Shown here piece by piece: positions 1 to 4,983 of a stretch of DNA of 4,983 nt; the first letter of the stretch is position 1, and every line of letters begins with the position of its first letter. This DNA is from a virus (Duplodnaviria; Heunggongvirae; Uroviricota; Caudoviricetes). The stretch lies in the IMG/VR virus record IMGVR_UViG_3300039327_000009, positions 1 through 4,983 of that record; one strand, written 5' to 3'. A program made the position numbers and the translations under genes. The notes beneath the pieces were generated by a model. The model did not search any database. It worked only from the letters and a program-made list of their open reading frames with translations, and was not told the DNA's origin.

Positions 1-93
1 GCAGAAAAAGCTTATTATGCTTCCATCGGAAACGATGATCTGGCAGCCTGAGTTCACAGATAAAACACTCTCCAGGAAACCCGGGGCGGTTCA
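1..93 (+). mobile_element. IS3-family insertion sequence, right-terminal segment (element body lies left of the window); includes the transposase C-terminus at 1..51
   Basis: Positions 1..93 are the exact reverse complement of 4886..4978. The inner end is ...CCCGGGGCGGTTCA (81..93), giving the TG...CA terminus typical of IS3-family elements. Frame +1 from position 1 reads [16 protein letters not shown] then stop (TGA 49..51), a plausible transposase C-terminus. Assignment to an IS629/IS3411-like element is from memory and unverified. Confidence 0.8.
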
Positions 94-664: not shown

Positions 665-1608
665 GCAATCCCCCTGTCTGCAAACTTCCCTTCCCGAACT
701 CCCGTTAACGAGTCTTCTCTCAGCAGGTAATCAAAATCAGCCGTCCAGCCCGTGTCGTTGTCTCCGAAGTAAAACGGCTTGGCCTGATGCACAAACGCCC
801 TGACATACGCTCTGAAACCGTCCACGTTTGGCGTTTTCAGTTGCGGGATGATTTTCTTCAGGCGGCGTTTTCGTTTCTCGTTGACCGCAACAGCGTGTGG
901 CAGTCTGTCACCGACTTCGGTGTTGTAGGCGTTCAGGAAGGATTCGTAGTCGATTCGTTCTGCCTTGCGACGTTCAGGTTTAACCTGCCCATCGCCTCCC
1001 CCATTGGGGGGTAGGGGGGTATTATTTATATTCTTGTTAATACCTTCTTGTTCATGATGTGCGGTTGTTTGTGCGGCTTCATGTGCGCTTTCATGTGCGG
1101 CATGTACGCTGAAAGCCGCGCTATTGCTGGCTTCATCATGTGCGGCATCATGTGCGGTTGTTTGTGCGGCTTCATGTGCGGGTAAATTGTCCATTTTTTG
1201 AGCATATTCATGGTAATTTGTGATGGTTATCACACGGCCTTTTTGCTTCTCTCCATCAATGGAGATCATCCCCTCTTTCACAAAAACCTGAAGCATCCGC
1301 TCAACCTGATCACGGCTTGCTGGCTTGCCATGTCTGTCGCATAACTGAAGACCTAAATCAGCTGCTGTCACAACCAGTTGACCGGGTTGCAGATGCCATT
1401 CATGACCTTTGAAATTCGCTTTGTATGGCTTTCTGGCGGCATTCAGGAGAAGGTTTTCCCACAGGGTGCGAAGATAAACATCTTTCGCCCATGACTGTTT
1501 CAGAATGCTCCGGTACAACGGAATGTAACCAGTTTTCTGGTTCTCCATCCTGTTGCTCCTGCGCTCGTGTGCGGCGCTGAAATCGTAGATTTTTGCTGTA
1601 TTGCTCAT
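661..1608 (-). CDS. O: Replication initiation protein, lambda O-like, with ori iterons embedded in the coding sequence
   Basis: 315-aa ORF. The N-terminus [10 protein letters not shown] resembles lambda O (MTNTAKILNF). A central His/Ala-rich low-complexity linker is encoded by the DNA iterons. The position, between cII and the helicase, fits a lambdoid replication module. Confidence 0.8.
1051..1182. repeat. Origin-of-replication iterons (about 9 copies of a CATGTGCGG-like 9-mer, including two ~35-bp direct repeats) inside the O-like gene
   Basis: Near-identical ~35-bp units at 1053..1087 and 1149..1182, plus further (C)ATGTGCG(G/C) copies between them. An AT-rich stretch at 1018..1050 and a C5/G6 palindrome at 1005..1018 lie downstream in the O reading direction, mirroring the lambda ori layout of iterons followed by an AT-rich region. 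Confidence 0.75.
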
Positions 1609-2573: not shown

Positions 2574-3224
2574 ATGAAAACTCAATTGATGGGAGAGCGC
2601 ATTCGCGCTCGGAGAAAAGAACTCAAGATCAGGCAGGCCGCACTTGGAAAGATGGTCGGCGTGTCTAATGTTGCCATATCTCAGTGGGAACGCTCTGAGA
2701 CAGAGCCAAATGGAGAGAATCTTCTCGCCCTGGCTAATGCGTTGAAGTGTTCCCCTGACTATCTGATGAAAGGAGAGGAAAGTCTTTCAAACATTGCCTA
2801 TCACAGTAGGCATGATCCAAGAGGGTCATACCCTCTGATTAGCTGGGTGAGCGCAGGATGCTGGATGGAAGCTGTAGAACCATATCATAAGCGTGCAATA
2901 GATAACTGGTACGATACAACCGTAGACTGTTCAGAAGATTCGTTTTGGTTGGACGTGAAGGGAGACTCAATGACGGCTCCGGCCGGTCTCAGTATCCCTG
3001 AAGGAATGATAATACTCGTCGATCCTGAAGTAGAGCCGCGTAACGGGAAACTGGTAGTTGCAAAGCTCGAAGGAGAAAACGAGGCAACTTTCAAGAAGTT
3101 AGTTATTGATGCAGGCAGGAAGTTTCTAAAACCACTTAACCCACAATATCCGATGATCGAGATCAACGGAAACTGCAAAATCATCGGCGTAGTTGTCGAT
3201 GCAAAACTAGCAAACCTTCCATAA
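2574..3224 (+). CDS. cI: Prophage repressor, CI/C2-type (N-terminal HTH, C-terminal LexA-like S24 autopeptidase domain)
   Basis: 216-aa product. HTH at QAALGKMVGVSNVAISQWE; C-terminal domain with GDSM (catalytic Ser) and VVAKLEGENEATFKKL (Lys). As I recall it, the sequence closely matches P22 C2 (MNTQLMGERIRARRK...VVVDAKLANLP). Confidence 0.93.
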   Translation: MKTQLMGERIRARRKELKIRQAALGKMVGVSNVAISQWERSETEPNGENLLALANALKCSPDYLMKGEESLSNIAYHSRHDPRGSYPLISWVSAGCWMEAVEPYHKRAIDNWYDTTVDCSEDSFWLDVKGDSMTAPAGLSIPEGMIILVDPEVEPRNGKLVVAKLEGENEATFKKLVIDAGRKFLKPLNPQYPMIEINGNCKIIGVVVDAKLANLP

Positions 3225-3248
3225 GGGGGCATTCGCCCCTTTTTTTTT
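3225..3248 (+). terminator. Rho-independent terminator immediately after the repressor gene
   Basis: GGGGC-ATTC-GCCCC hairpin (3226..3239) followed by a T9 run (3240..3248). Confidence 0.8.
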
Positions 3249-3272
3249 ATTTCCTTTAAAAATCAAAGCCAA

Positions 3273-3345
3273 ACTTAAGTTACGAAAGAAAATTTAAGTT
3301 TTCTTCAAAAATGCTCTTGACCATTAATTAAAGAGATCTTAAATT
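3273..3345 (+). promoter_or_regulatory. OL operators and PL (-35 TTGACC at 3317..3322, 17-bp spacer, -10 TAAATT at 3340..3345)
   Basis: Operator ATTAAAGAGATCTTAAAT (3327..3344) is near-identical to the OR site at 2508..2525. A second site ATTTAAGTTTTCTTCAAA lies at 3292..3309, and a palindrome AACTTAAGTT at 3272..3281. Confidence 0.75.
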
Positions 3346-3391
3346 TAAGCCATCAGCAGGACGCTGGAAGCCAAACGGAACAGATTGGCAG

Positions 3392-3432
3392 GCTCTTTAA
3401 CATTGATGGGATTGTCCCGCCGAAATGCGGGA
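3392..3432 (+). promoter_or_regulatory. nutL (boxA GCTCTTTAACA at 3392..3402; boxB hairpin TCCCGC-CGAAAT-GCGGGA at 3415..3432)
   Basis: Identical boxA and boxB to nutR, with matching spacing (12 vs 13 nt), about 45 nt downstream of the predicted PL start. Confidence 0.85.
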
Positions 3433-3745
3433 ACCAAAGAGTAGTTGGCTTTGGGGTGACGTGAAGTGCAGCTGCACGACGGCAACCGGAAGATAAGCAC
3501 CCGGCGCGTCACCGCCAAAGTCAATTCCATAGGCGTTATGCAGCCGCCACCATATTCAAGAAAGCTGCACAAGAGGTAGGAGGATTTATGTGAATGCATA
3601 ACTTCAAAACCGAGGTTAATTAAATCTCTCGATCCGAGCATCGACCTATTAGGTGGCGAGATGCTCTTTCTGCCCCTCAGTTCGAGGGGCCAGAAACCAC
3701 TTTGCAATCACTATCAATTCCAAAGTTGTTTCATCGGAGGTCAAC

Positions 3746-4045
3746 ATGACAGTAGTCATTACATATCTGGCTGACGATAACGCCAGAAATCGCCGCAGAG
3801 CACGCAGACAGGCTCAACGTGAACAGGCGATGCAAGAACAGCGACTGGCGCGAAAAATTGCGCTAAAGCTCTCTGGTTGCGTCAGAGCGGATAAAGCAGC
3901 ATCACTCGGAATCCTTCGCTGCAAGAAGGCAGATGAAGTCGAGAGTAAACAGAATCGTATTTACTACCGCAAGCCACGCAGTGAAATGGGTGTGACTTGT
4001 GTTGGTCGCCAGAAAATGAAATTAGGCAGCAAACCACTTATTTGA
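3746..4045 (+). CDS. N: N-family transcription antiterminator
   Basis: 99-aa product. N-terminal arginine-rich motif (NARNRRRARRQAQREQ); C-terminus YYRKPRSEMGVTCVGRQKMKLGSKPLI resembles the lambda and phage 21 N C-termini. GGAGG SD at 3736..3740. Positioned downstream of PL and nutL. The track ORF from 3653 is an upstream extension lacking an SD. Confidence 0.85.
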   Translation: MTVVITYLADDNARNRRRARRQAQREQAMQEQRLARKIALKLSGCVRADKAASLGILRCKKADEVESKQNRIYYRKPRSEMGVTCVGRQKMKLGSKPLI

Positions 4046-4885: not shown

Positions 4886-4983
4886 TGAACCGCCCCGGGT
4901 TTCCTGGAGAGTGTTTTATCTGTGAACTCAGGCTGCCAGATCATCGTTTCCGATGGAAGCATAATAAGCTTTTTCTGCTTCTG
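4886..4983 (-). mobile_element. IS3-family insertion sequence, right-terminal segment in inverted orientation (element body lies right of the window); transposase C-terminus on the minus strand at 4928..4983
   Basis: TGAACCGCCCCGGG... begins at 4886. Positions 4886..4978 are a perfect reverse complement of 1..93, and 4979..4983 continue as further IS sequence. Confidence 0.8.

What the first reader, a model, noticed from the sequence alone, without database searches (positions are those of the whole stretch)
3433..3580. Unusually long, GC-rich, highly structured leader between nutL and N
About 310 nt separate nutL from the N start. The stretch has no credible ORF but contains nested inverted repeats: CCAAAG/CTTTGG (3433..3453), GGTGACG/CGTCACC (3455..3513) enclosing the perfect 12-bp palindrome GTGCAGCTGCAC (3466..3477), and CCGG...CCGG. 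It could be an RNase III processing site controlling N translation, an embedded small RNA, or a protein-binding site.
Basis: seen in the sequence. Interest (0 to 1): 0.5.

Follow-up and report, generated by a model that had tools for sequence, protein, structure and literature searches.

The report
Phage N-gene leader RNase III hairpin
The structured stretch is the counterpart of the well-known hairpin in phage lambda's N-gene leader RNA that RNase III cuts to control N synthesis. The leader is unusually long only because an extra, uncharacterised 206-base structured block sits between that hairpin and the N start.

Summary
The window is a lambdoid immunity region: cI, pL, nutL, leader, N. Positions 3443-3526 fold into a 21-bp stem with one bulged base (dG -41 kcal/mol, z -4.2).

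This stem is homologous to the lambda N-leader hairpin that RNase III processes. The same stem base (GGNUUUGG / CCAAAG) pairs in all 57 distinct related leaders examined, including lambda, 21, P22 and HK620-type phages, whatever lies inside the stem. Covariation is strong: 96.6% of cells paired, 9 of 20 pairs with compensatory changes, 0 of 500 shuffles as good.

Cleavage itself was not tested.

Two features appear undescribed:
- **The insert.** The unusual length comes from a 206-nt insert (3526-3731) that the nearest relative, HK630, lacks. It is non-coding, moderately structured, itself mosaic, and carries a conserved SD-AUG-UGA start-stop.
- **A competing hairpin.** The small upstream pairing CCAAAG:CUUUGG is also conserved, with compensatory variants. 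It competes with the base of the long stem.

Overall this is a variant of a known element, of modest interest.

The parts
3317..3345 (+). pL promoter (-35 TTGACC 3317-3322, -10 TAAATT 3340-3345). The inferred transcript start is about 3352 (A of ATCAGCAGG).
   Evidence: One search finds this as the only sigma-70-like site in 3200-3800. It aligns to the annotated pL start of phage 21.
3392..3401 (+). nutL boxA (GCTCTTTAAC, rrn-like)
   Evidence: It lies in a stretch invariant across the five leaders aligned. It corresponds to the boxA features annotated in phage 21, HK630 and HK140.
3415..3432 (+). nutL boxB hairpin (UCCCGC-CGAAAU-GCGGGA)
   Evidence: A 19-nt perfect inverted repeat with 2257-2275, which is nutR boxB on the rightward transcript (I2). 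It folds.
3434..3454 (+). Small alternative hairpin CCAAAG (3434-3439) : CUUUGG (3449-3454). It competes with the base of the long stem.
   Evidence: It is conserved with compensatory variants: CCAAAC:GUUUGG, CCAAAA:UUUUGG, UCAAAG:CUUUGG.
3443..3526 (+). Long N-leader hairpin, homologous to the lambda RNase III-processed stem. Lower stem 3443-3454/3515-3526, bulged G3514, upper stem 3455-3463/3505-3513, apical region 3464-3504.
   Evidence: Fold. Lambda folds the same way. The stem base pairs in all 57 distinct leaders. Covariation.
3466..3477 (+).
   Evidence: Relatives carry UUGCAGCUGCAA, UUGCAGCAGCAA and others that keep the 4-bp stem. RNAalifold prefers an alternative pairing, GCUG/CGGC, so this is unresolved.
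3486..3504 (+). Apical mini-hairpin CCGG / CCGG with conserved 11-nt loop AAGAUAAGCAC
   Evidence: Compensatory GC to AU in 9 sequences and CG to UA in 5 sequences.
3526..3731 (+). 206-nt leader insert, absent from HK630-type leaders. Non-coding, a series of hairpins, internally mosaic.
3578..3593 (+). Strong SD (AGGAGG 3578-3583) plus AUG (3588-3590) and UGA (3591-3593): a start-stop mini-ORF. It is followed by a 9-codon ORF at 3594-3623 (MHNFKTEVN).
   Evidence: The 18-nt block AGGAGGATTTATGTGAAT is invariant in all insert alleles. A plasmid homologue has ATGTAA. The 9-codon ORF is not kept in the CUS-3 allele.
3636..3696 (+). Two insert hairpins: GAGCAUC/GAUGCUC (3636-3642/3660-3666) and UUUCUGCCCCUC/GAGGGGCCAGAAA (3667-3696)
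   Evidence: Compensatory changes between the window allele, the CUS-3 allele and the plasmid locus L132.
3693..3732 (+). Insert hairpin (16 positions, 14 paired) whose 3' arm ends 3 nt before the N Shine-Dalgarno sequence
   Evidence: (I2). It is invariant apart from one mismatch position, so there is no covariation evidence.
3736..4045 (+). N Shine-Dalgarno GGAGG (3736-3740) and N gene (ATG 3746 to stop 4045, 99 aa, arginine-rich motif)
   Evidence: phrog_271, anti-termination protein N-like, E = 2.9e-36. Weak Pfam N_peptide match. Annotated as N in CUS-3 and HK140.

Best explanation
Positions 3443-3526 of the pL transcript form the lambdoid N-leader hairpin. This is a roughly 21-bp duplex (lower stem, one bulged base on the 3' side, upper stem) placed just after nutL.

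**How it works in lambda (established, not tested here).** N bound at nutL together with the Nus factors and RNA polymerase represses translation of N in cis. RNase III cuts the duplex, which detaches nutL from the N ribosome-binding site and relieves the repression. N synthesis is thereby coupled to the level of RNase III in the cell.

**Inference for this phage.** I infer the same mechanism here.

**The upstream CCAAAG hexamer (inferred).** It is conserved and can refold with the 5' arm. I propose that it either delays formation of the long stem or helps the two cleavage products separate.

**The 206-nt insert (3526-3731; function not shown).** It is a separately acquired, non-coding, hairpin-forming block. 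It moves the RNase III stem from about 20 nt to about 220 nt upstream of the N start. It places a different hairpin (3693-3732) against the N Shine-Dalgarno sequence. It carries a conserved start-stop that could load ribosomes onto the leader.
For: **Context.** pL, boxA, boxB (identical to nutR boxB) and N are all in place.

**Fold.** dG is -41.3 kcal/mol with z -4.16.

**Homology.**
- 3345-3525 is 98.9% identical to HK630 and 78-80% identical to phage 21, mEp235, Lambda_ev058 and Stx phages. In each case the match stops at the 3' base of the stem.
- The lambda leader has GGCUUUGGGGUGUGUG...CACACACC(A)CCAAAGC and folds into the same architecture.
- P22 does as well.

**Conservation of pairing.**
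- In all 57 distinct leaders the minimum-energy fold pairs the two arms, although the interior varies from 31 to 191 nt.
- Arms-only alignment of 19 distinct stems: 96.6% of cells paired, 9 of 20 pairs with changes on both sides, 0 of 500 shuffles as good, slid controls 35-45% paired.
- An unsupervised MAFFT plus RNAalifold run recovers the upper stem and the CCGG mini-hairpin with compensatory changes.

**Position relative to N.** Where there is no insert, the 3' arm ends 18-22 nt before the N ATG.

**Literature.**
- The lambda N leader is an RNase III target (PMC5371410, citing Steege 1987).
- nutL-dependent translational repression of N acts across a highly structured spacer (PMC5725501).
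- A discrete RNA covering part of the homologous P22 hairpin has been detected (PMC13397905).

**Alternative hairpin.** Compensatory variants are listed.

**Insert.**
Against: - No cleavage data exist for this phage or for any HK620-type N leader. RNase III recognition cannot be predicted reliably from sequence.
- In this window the hairpin is about 220 nt from the N ribosome-binding site, not adjacent as in lambda, 21, P22 and HK630. The quantitative effect on N translation could therefore differ or be lost.
- The arms-only alignment used for one search was hand-anchored on the conserved TTTGG and CCAAA motifs, which favours the structure.
- The stem sequences fall into about eight lineages, so the number of independent compensatory events is smaller than the cell counts suggest.
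- The ends of the P22B RNA lie at the stem base and in the apical region. They do not sit where I recall the lambda RNase III cuts to be, inside the lower stem.
- The window is an IS-bracketed prophage remnant, so this particular copy may not be expressed.
Confidence: 0.7

Rival explanations
1. The hairpin region is the precursor of a stable small RNA that has a function of its own, in trans or packaged into vesicles. Control of N translation would then be secondary.
For: PMC13397905 reports P22B, a 96-nt RNA abundant in infected cells and in outer-membrane vesicles. Mapped onto the P22 sequence, it covers the apical region plus the 3' arm of the homologous hairpin and ends 16 nt before the gene 24 ATG. 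The loop AAGAUAAGCAC is conserved across three N-gene types.
Against: There is no promoter or intrinsic terminator of its own and no Rfam family. The apical region, which would carry any trans-acting sequence, is the least conserved part: lambda, P22, L007, L009 and L086 each have unrelated interiors of 31-191 nt. No target has been proposed in the P22 paper. The RNA is what a processing or decay intermediate of a stable stem would look like.
Confidence: 0.12
2. The inverted repeats act at the DNA level. The palindrome GTGCAGCTGCAC or the long repeat would be a protein-binding or recombination site.
For: There is a perfect 12-bp palindrome containing CAGCTG at 3466-3477. The 3' base of the stem coincides with a mosaic boundary between phage modules.
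Against: Relatives carry UUGCAGCAGCAA and UUGCAGCAGUAA. These destroy the centre of the palindrome but keep the 4-bp RNA stem. G-U pairs are tolerated throughout the long stem (GU:15 at pair 1/44, GU:8 at pair 5/40), and G-U pairing only makes sense in RNA. The strand asymmetry (one bulged base always on the 3' arm) is conserved in lambda, P22 and the window.
Confidence: 0.03
3. The region encodes a small protein: the 37-aa GTG ORF at 3466-3579, the antisense 120-aa ORF, or the mini-ORFs of the insert.
For: The ORFs exist, and automatic pipelines have annotated them as hypothetical proteins in some records. The 9-codon ORF MHNFKTEVN resembles MHKFKSESK on a plasmid and MRTRNFKSESM in Serratia, Citrobacter and Kluyvera contigs.
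Against: Neither long ORF has a meaningful family match: the 37-aa ORF has none, and the 120-aa ORF matches only an unknown-function PHROG over its last 20 residues. The 37-aa frame is closed after 3 codons in Lambda_ev058-type leaders (TTGCAGCAGTAA). Annotated strands disagree between records. Substitutions in the stem are paired compensatory changes rather than codon-wise changes. The 9-codon ORF has no ATG and an internal TGA in the CUS-3 allele.
Confidence: 0.04
4. The 206-nt insert has no function. It would be a tolerated scrap left by illegitimate recombination at a module boundary.
For: The same boundary carries other unrelated inserts in sister phages: a 38-aa hydrophobic ORF in L009-type leaders and a ~250-nt block upstream of the hairpin in L006-type leaders. 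The commonest arrangement has no insert, in 30 of 66 distinct HK620-type leaders. One insert hairpin (3693-3732) shows no covariation because it does not vary.
Against: The insert is kept in 163 of 5426 E. coli genomes and in three phage records, always at this site. It folds better than shuffles (z -2.6 and -3.4). Two of its hairpins keep pairing through compensatory changes across two alleles and a distant plasmid homologue. The SD-AUG-stop block is invariant between variable segments, and its stop codon changes only to another stop codon (TGA to TAA) in the plasmid.
Confidence: 0.3

Closest known systems
RNase III-sensitive hairpin of the phage lambda N-gene leader (Steege et al. 1987; Kameyama et al. 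1991; Wilson et al. 1997 and 2002). The papers are cited from memory and through PMC5371410 and PMC5725501. The originals are not in the held library.
   Same: Same position on the pL transcript, between nutL and N. Same stem base (GGCUUUGGGGUG / CACC-N-CCAAAG). Same layout of lower stem, one bulged base on the 3' arm, and upper stem. The upstream complementary hexamer is also present.
   Different: The interior is unrelated and shorter (41 nt unpaired or apical here, against about 81 nt in lambda). The upper stem sequence differs through compensatory changes. Here the 3' arm is about 220 nt from the N start instead of about 20 nt. Cleavage is untested here.
The same hairpin in HK630/HK620-type, phage 21 and P22 N leaders
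   Same: 98.9% identity to HK630 over 3345-3525. 78-80% identity to phage 21 and the P22-boxB type. All fold alike.
   Different: Those phages have the N Shine-Dalgarno sequence 8-13 nt after the stem. The window, like CUS-3 and HK140, has the 206-nt insert in between.
rrn operon leader: the nut-like boxB-boxA-boxC element, where boxC forms one strand of the RNase III stem that brackets 16S rRNA (PMC8632103)
   Same: A Nus-factor loading site is followed directly by the 5' strand of an RNase III duplex. The nut-bound polymerase can 'deliver' that strand to its downstream partner. From memory, the 5' arm of the lambda stem overlaps what was called boxC of nutL.
   Different: In rrn the partner strand lies about 1.7 kb away and cleavage matures rRNA. 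Here the partner is 40-60 nt away and the outcome is control of translation of one mRNA.
P22B small non-coding RNA (PMC13397905, 2026)
   Same: It maps to the homologous hairpin of the P22 gene 24 leader: apical part plus 3' arm, with the 3' end at the stem base.
   Different: It is defined only by small-RNA sequencing in P22, and its function is unknown. The apical sequence is unrelated to the window's. No equivalent data exist for this phage.
Start-stop mini-ORFs in E. coli (Meydan et al., bioRxiv 10.1101/520783)
   Same: [quoted passage not shown] In yecJ such a site binds ribosomes and slightly lowers expression of the host gene.
   Different: The published cases are inside coding genes. 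This one is in a 5' leader, and its translation has not been shown.

Membership tests
Lambdoid N-leader RNase III hairpin | Lies on the pL transcript between nutL (boxA, boxB) and the N start | tested here: met
   pL at 3317-3345. boxA at 3392-3401. boxB at 3415-3432, identical to nutR boxB. N at 3746-4045.
Lambdoid N-leader RNase III hairpin | Extended duplex of about two helical turns (20 bp or more) | tested here: met
   21 pairs with one bulge, -41.3 kcal/mol, z -4.16.
Lambdoid N-leader RNase III hairpin | Sequence homology of the stem base to the lambda stem | tested here: met
   GGCTTTGGGGTG / CACC-N-CCAAAG is shared with lambda.
Lambdoid N-leader RNase III hairpin | Pairing maintained by compensatory change across relatives | tested here: met
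   96.6% of cells paired, 9 of 20 pairs with double changes, 0 of 500 shuffles as good. The upper stem is recovered without supervision. The stem base pairs in all 57 folds.
Lambdoid N-leader RNase III hairpin | 3' arm directly abuts the N ribosome-binding site (within about 20 nt) | tested here: not met
   222-227 nt in window-type leaders, against 18-22 nt in lambda-like, 21, P22-type and HK630-type leaders.
Lambdoid N-leader RNase III hairpin | Cleaved by E. coli RNase III in vivo or in vitro | not testable with these tools
   No data. Indirect only: lambda precedent and the P22B RNA.
Lambdoid N-leader RNase III hairpin | Cleavage relieves nutL/N-dependent repression of N translation | not testable with these tools
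   Known for lambda only (PMC5725501, citing Wilson 1997 and 2002).
Curated RNA families (Rfam 15) | Match to any covariance model at or near its gathering score | tested here: not met
   Nothing relevant at E <= 10 in the window, or at E <= 1 in lambda and four related loci. The element has no Rfam family.
Independent small-RNA gene | Own promoter and own terminator | tested here: not met
   Only pL is found. No terminator-like site lies on the + strand between 3243 and 3800.
Start-stop regulatory mini-ORF | [quoted passage not shown] | tested here: met
   AGGAGG-ATTT-ATG-TGA is invariant in all 11 distinct insert sequences. The plasmid homologue has ATG-TAA.
Start-stop regulatory mini-ORF | Ribosome occupancy and an effect on the downstream gene | not testable with these tools
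   No ribosome profiling or reporter data are available.

The most novel reading that the evidence does not exclude
The space between nutL and the N ribosome-binding site may be a modular landing pad for portable regulatory RNA blocks. The 206-nt insert would be one such cassette: a conserved start-stop, an optional NFK[ST]E-type mini-ORF, and two covarying hairpins. A relative of it sits in an intergenic region beside a hok toxin gene on Klebsiella-type conjugative plasmids. On this reading the cassette rewires N control, for example by loading ribosomes on the leader or by uncoupling the N ribosome-binding site from the nutL-bound complex. In addition, the conserved CCAAAG:CUUUGG alternative hairpin would be a functional switch that governs formation of the RNase III stem or release of its cleavage products.
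Probability: 0.2. Interest if true: 0.5.

Novelty: new variant of a known kind. Interest (0 to 1): 0.3.

Why it matters
The timing and level of N decide whether a lambdoid phage can read through its early terminators. That includes Stx-converting and K1-capsule-modifying prophages of pathogenic E. coli.

This analysis shows that the RNase III hairpin described in lambda is a conserved, covarying module. It is shared by lambda, 21, P22, HK620-type and Stx-phage N leaders.

Natural variants now exist in which the hairpin is moved about 200 nt from the ribosome-binding site or carries very different interiors. They are ready-made test material for a specific question: how does a nut-bound elongation complex repress a distant ribosome-binding site, and does distance or intervening structure matter?

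The element has no Rfam family, so a covariance model would improve prophage annotation. It would also remove spurious 'hypothetical protein' calls over the leader.

Tried and rejected
- **Rfam.** An E-value scan of the window and of lambda plus four related loci found nothing relevant.
- **Protein families.** The 37-aa leader ORF has no Pfam or PHROG match. The 120-aa antisense ORF has no Pfam match and only a 20-residue match to an unknown-function PHROG.
- **Mobile element idea.** I tested whether the insert is a multi-copy element. It occurs once per genome and always at this site, so I rejected that idea.
- **The ~250-nt block in L006-type leaders.** It is not better folded than shuffles (z -0.94), so I did not pursue it as a structured RNA.
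- **Accessibility of the N Shine-Dalgarno sequence.** Thermodynamic estimates before and after a notional cut gave no clear difference. I did not use them.
- **Automatic alignments.** Plain MAFFT alignments of the hairpin mis-register the 5' arm. I therefore used equal-length arms-only constructs and say so.
- **Genome-wide pattern scan.** A scan for the start-stop 18-mer mostly returned chance Shine-Dalgarno matches in Firmicutes. Only three enterobacterial contigs looked related.
- **Primary literature.** The lambda papers (Wilson 1997 and 2002, Parks 2014, Bubunenko 2013, the Court 2013 review, Casjens and Hendrix 2015) are not in the held library. Exact lambda cleavage positions therefore rest on my memory and are not asserted.
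- **Long-range pairing.** The minimum-energy fold pairs 3402-3414 with 3704-3718. This pairing is not conserved in the CUS-3 allele, so I dropped it.

Full report
**What the window is.** The 4983-nt window is a lambdoid immunity and early-control region, read in the leftward (pL) direction on the + strand.
- On the - strand: a truncated P, O (661-1608), lambda-like cII (1906-2199), nutR and cro (2308-2493).
- On the + strand: a LexA-type cI repressor (2574-3224; Peptidase_S24 plus HTH) and its terminator (3223-3242).
- Then pL (TTGACC 3317-3322, TAAATT 3340-3345), nutL, a long leader, and N (3746-4045; phrog_271 N-like, E = 2.9e-36).
- The nutL assignment is secure. boxA (3392-3401) lies in a stretch invariant across the five leaders aligned. 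The boxB hairpin (3415-3432) is a perfect 19-nt inverted repeat of a sequence between cro and cII, which is nutR boxB.
- By alignment with the annotated phage 21 record, the transcript starts at about 3352. The N leader is therefore about 394 nt.

**Check of the observation.**
- Positions 3433-3530 fold to -41.3 kcal/mol against -27.2 +/- 3.4 for dinucleotide shuffles (z -4.16).
- The predicted structure is a 21-bp stem. It has a lower helix 3443-3454/3515-3526, a single bulged G3514, and an upper helix 3455-3463/3505-3513.
- GC is 53-59% across 3350-3549.

**What it is.**
- Window 3345-3525 is 98.9% identical to phage HK630. It is 78-80% identical to phage 21, mEp235, Lambda_ev058 and many Stx-converting phages. 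In each case the match stops at the 3' foot of the stem.
- Lambda itself reads GGCUUUGGGGUGUGUG ... CACACACC(A)CCAAAGC at the equivalent place. It folds into the same layout of lower stem, 3' bulge and upper stem, around an unrelated 81-nt interior.
- P22 does the same with ACUGGCG/CGCCAGU as its upper stem.

**Conservation of the pairing.**
- A scan of viral contigs with the 20-mer around boxA returned 120 loci. Together with the fetched phage and E. coli records, these gave 57 distinct leaders.
- In every one, an independent minimum-energy fold pairs the GGNUUUGG arm with the CCAAAG arm. This holds although the interior ranges from 31 to 191 nt and extra blocks flank the stem in some.
- I built an equal-length, arms-only alignment of 19 distinct stems. 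It was hand-anchored on the TTTGG and CCAAA motifs, a choice that favours the structure, and I declare that here.
- On that alignment, 96.6% of cells form standard pairs and 9 of 20 pairs show changes on both sides. None of 500 shuffles reaches any of the five measures. Sliding the partner by 1-3 columns drops pairing to 35-45%.
- A plain MAFFT alignment with RNAalifold, with no hand-anchoring, still recovers the upper stem (CG to UA in 9 sequences, GC to AU in 5). It also recovers the CCGG mini-hairpin (GC to AU in 9, CG to UA in 5).
- The stem is therefore a conserved RNA structure, not a chance repeat and not a DNA palindrome. G-U pairs are frequent. Variants of the 12-mer such as UUGCAGCAGCAA break the DNA symmetry while keeping a 4-bp RNA stem.

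**Link to known biology.**
- PMC5371410, citing Steege et al. [quoted passage not shown] - PMC5725501 summarises Wilson et al. 1997 and 2002. nutL lies about 200 nt upstream of N. N and the Nus factors bound at nutL repress N translation. The intervening RNA is highly structured.
- From my own knowledge of those papers, which are not held in the library: the leader order is NUTL, RNase III-sensitive hairpin, ribosome-binding site. Cleavage does not affect antitermination but abolishes N-mediated repression.
- The rrn operons offer a parallel. A nut-like boxB-boxA-boxC element is followed by boxC forming one strand of the RNase III stem around 16S rRNA (PMC8632103).
- A 2026 paper reports a 96-nt RNA, P22B, ending 16 nt before P22 gene 24. 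Placed on the P22 sequence, it is the apical part plus 3' arm of the homologous hairpin. A discrete RNA species does arise from this element in at least one relative.

**Why the leader is long.**
- In lambda, 21, the P22-boxB type and HK630, the 3' arm ends 18-22 nt before the N ATG.
- HK630 has the same N start (MTVVITYLAD) and reads ...CCAAAGTCAAT|CATCGGAGGTCAACATG.
- The window reads ...CCAAAGTCAAT[206 nt]CATCGGAGGTCAACATG.
- Among 66 distinct HK620-type leaders, 30 have no insert and 18 carry this insert. Others carry different cargo. One type has a 38-aa hydrophobic ORF between stem and ribosome-binding site. Another has a ~250-nt block between boxB and the stem. Several have greatly enlarged stem interiors.

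**Properties of the insert (3526-3731).**
- It occurs in only three phage records (CUS-3, where the whole cI-N spacer is annotated as a 'boundary sequence', and HK140 deposited twice). It also occurs in 163 of 5426 complete E. coli genomes, typically once per genome, and at the N leader in every case I inspected.
- It has no conserved ORF. It folds moderately better than shuffles (z -2.6 here, -3.4 in CUS-3).
- It is itself mosaic, with two alleles for each of two segments separated by invariant blocks.
- Two hairpins, 3636-3666 and 3667-3696, keep their pairing through compensatory changes between alleles.
- A third hairpin, 3693-3732, is invariant. It ends 3 nt before the N Shine-Dalgarno sequence, so it takes the place next to the ribosome-binding site that the RNase III stem holds in other phages.
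- The most conserved block is AGGAGGATTTATGTGAAT: a strong Shine-Dalgarno sequence, then AUG, then UGA.
- A weak but collinear homologue exists on a family of Klebsiella-type conjugative plasmids (E = 4e-4). It lies in an intergenic region beside a hok toxin gene. It keeps the start-stop as ATGTAA, keeps both hairpins (one with a G:C to A:U double change), and keeps a 9-codon ORF, MHKFKSESK against MHNFKTEVN here.
- A similar mini-ORF (MRTRNFKSESM) appears in Serratia, Citrobacter and Kluyvera contigs. The ORF is destroyed in the CUS-3 allele, so peptide-level function is doubtful.
- Start-stops that bind ribosomes are documented in E. coli (bioRxiv 10.1101/520783). That makes a ribosome-loading role conceivable but unproven.

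**A second conserved pairing.**
- It is retained in all lineages with compensatory variants: CCAAAC:GUUUGG in the P22-boxB type and P22, CCAAAA:UUUUGG in L082, CCAGAAC:GUUUUGG in phage 21, and UCAAAG:CUUUGG in lambda.
- At the variable position the long stem tolerates G.G or U.G (pair 6/39). The small hairpin stays Watson-Crick.
- I infer, and have not shown, a role in ordering co-transcriptional folding. Alternatively it may refold the 5' cleavage product so that the nutL fragment lets go of the N mRNA.

**Mechanism and confidence.**
- Shown: the element is the homologue of the lambda N-leader hairpin, and its pairing is under selection.
- Inferred from lambda: RNase III cleaves it, and cleavage frees N translation from nutL-dependent repression.
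- Unknown: what the 206-nt insert does.
- My preferred reading is that cleavage anywhere between nutL and the ribosome-binding site still severs the tether, so the basic switch survives. The insert may change how tightly the uncleaved leader holds the ribosome-binding site near the nut complex.
- Overall confidence in the stated explanation is 0.7. Homology alone is above 0.95.

**Novelty.** The hairpin belongs to a classical, if uncurated (no Rfam family), regulatory element. The displaced arrangement, the insert with its start-stop, and the covarying alternative hairpin are to my knowledge undescribed. I rate the finding as a new variant of a known kind, of modest interest.

Noticed in passing
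window 1-93 and 4886-4978: The two ends of the window are a perfect 93-nt inverted repeat. The sequence matches the end of an IS3-family (IS1203-like) element that is present in 4526 of 5426 E. coli genomes. The 4.8-kb immunity region, with P truncated near position 91, is therefore bracketed by two inverted copies of an IS end. That makes it a prophage remnant or a contig bounded by IS copies. The ATCC 11775 prophage has the same leader without the right-hand IS.
   Followed up: partly
L006 491-742, also L008, L040, L058, L074, L075, L096; variant in L095 and L107: Some sister leaders carry a ~250-nt block between boxB and the RNase III-type stem. It has several GNRA-like loops and its own SD plus a 3-codon mini-ORF. 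It has no Rfam hit and does not fold better than shuffles (z -0.94).
   Followed up: partly
L009 about 660-777 (also L019, L086, L087, L092, L104): In these leaders the space between the stem and the N ribosome-binding site holds a 38-aa hydrophobic ORF with its own ribosome-binding site (MLDIITNPILGGLVTTFAIGFGFTIWSEVDDWMWERKNK). It looks like a moron-type small membrane protein inserted at the same boundary.
   Followed up: no
L132 1501-1625 (plasmid p08A21CPO005_A and 11 near-identical conjugative plasmids): An intergenic homologue of the core of the insert: start-stop ATGTAA, 9-codon ORF, two hairpins. It lies about 240 nt from a convergent hok/mok toxin locus, downstream of an HTH gene and a hypothetical gene. 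Related mini-ORFs occur in Serratia, Citrobacter and Kluyvera contigs L147, L151 and L153.
   Followed up: partly
window 3487-3500 (loop AAGAUAAGCAC): The 11-nt loop of the CCGG mini-hairpin is nearly invariant (AAGAU[A/C]AGCA[C/U]) across leaders that serve three different N genes and boxB types. That is unexpected for a mere loop. No partner sequence was looked for.
   Followed up: no
window 1053-1180 (inside the O gene, - strand): There are four copies of a repeat with 12-nt sub-periodicity (CATGTGCGG...). It encodes the His/Ala-rich linker of O and probably corresponds to the ori iterons (D1).
   Followed up: no
window 3345-3707 (- strand) and 3466-3579 (+ strand); HK630 gp43, HK140_048, Lambda_ev058 VUF53880.1: Public records annotate 'hypothetical proteins' on inconsistent strands across nutL and the hairpin. 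These look like spurious gene calls over a structured RNA leader.
   Followed up: partly
window 3264-3349: The pL region contains several copies of an AAnTTAAGTTT-type inverted motif (repeat finder I1, I4, I7, I8). These are presumably the OL operators for this immunity type and match the positions of OL1-OL3 in the phage 21 annotation.
   Followed up: no
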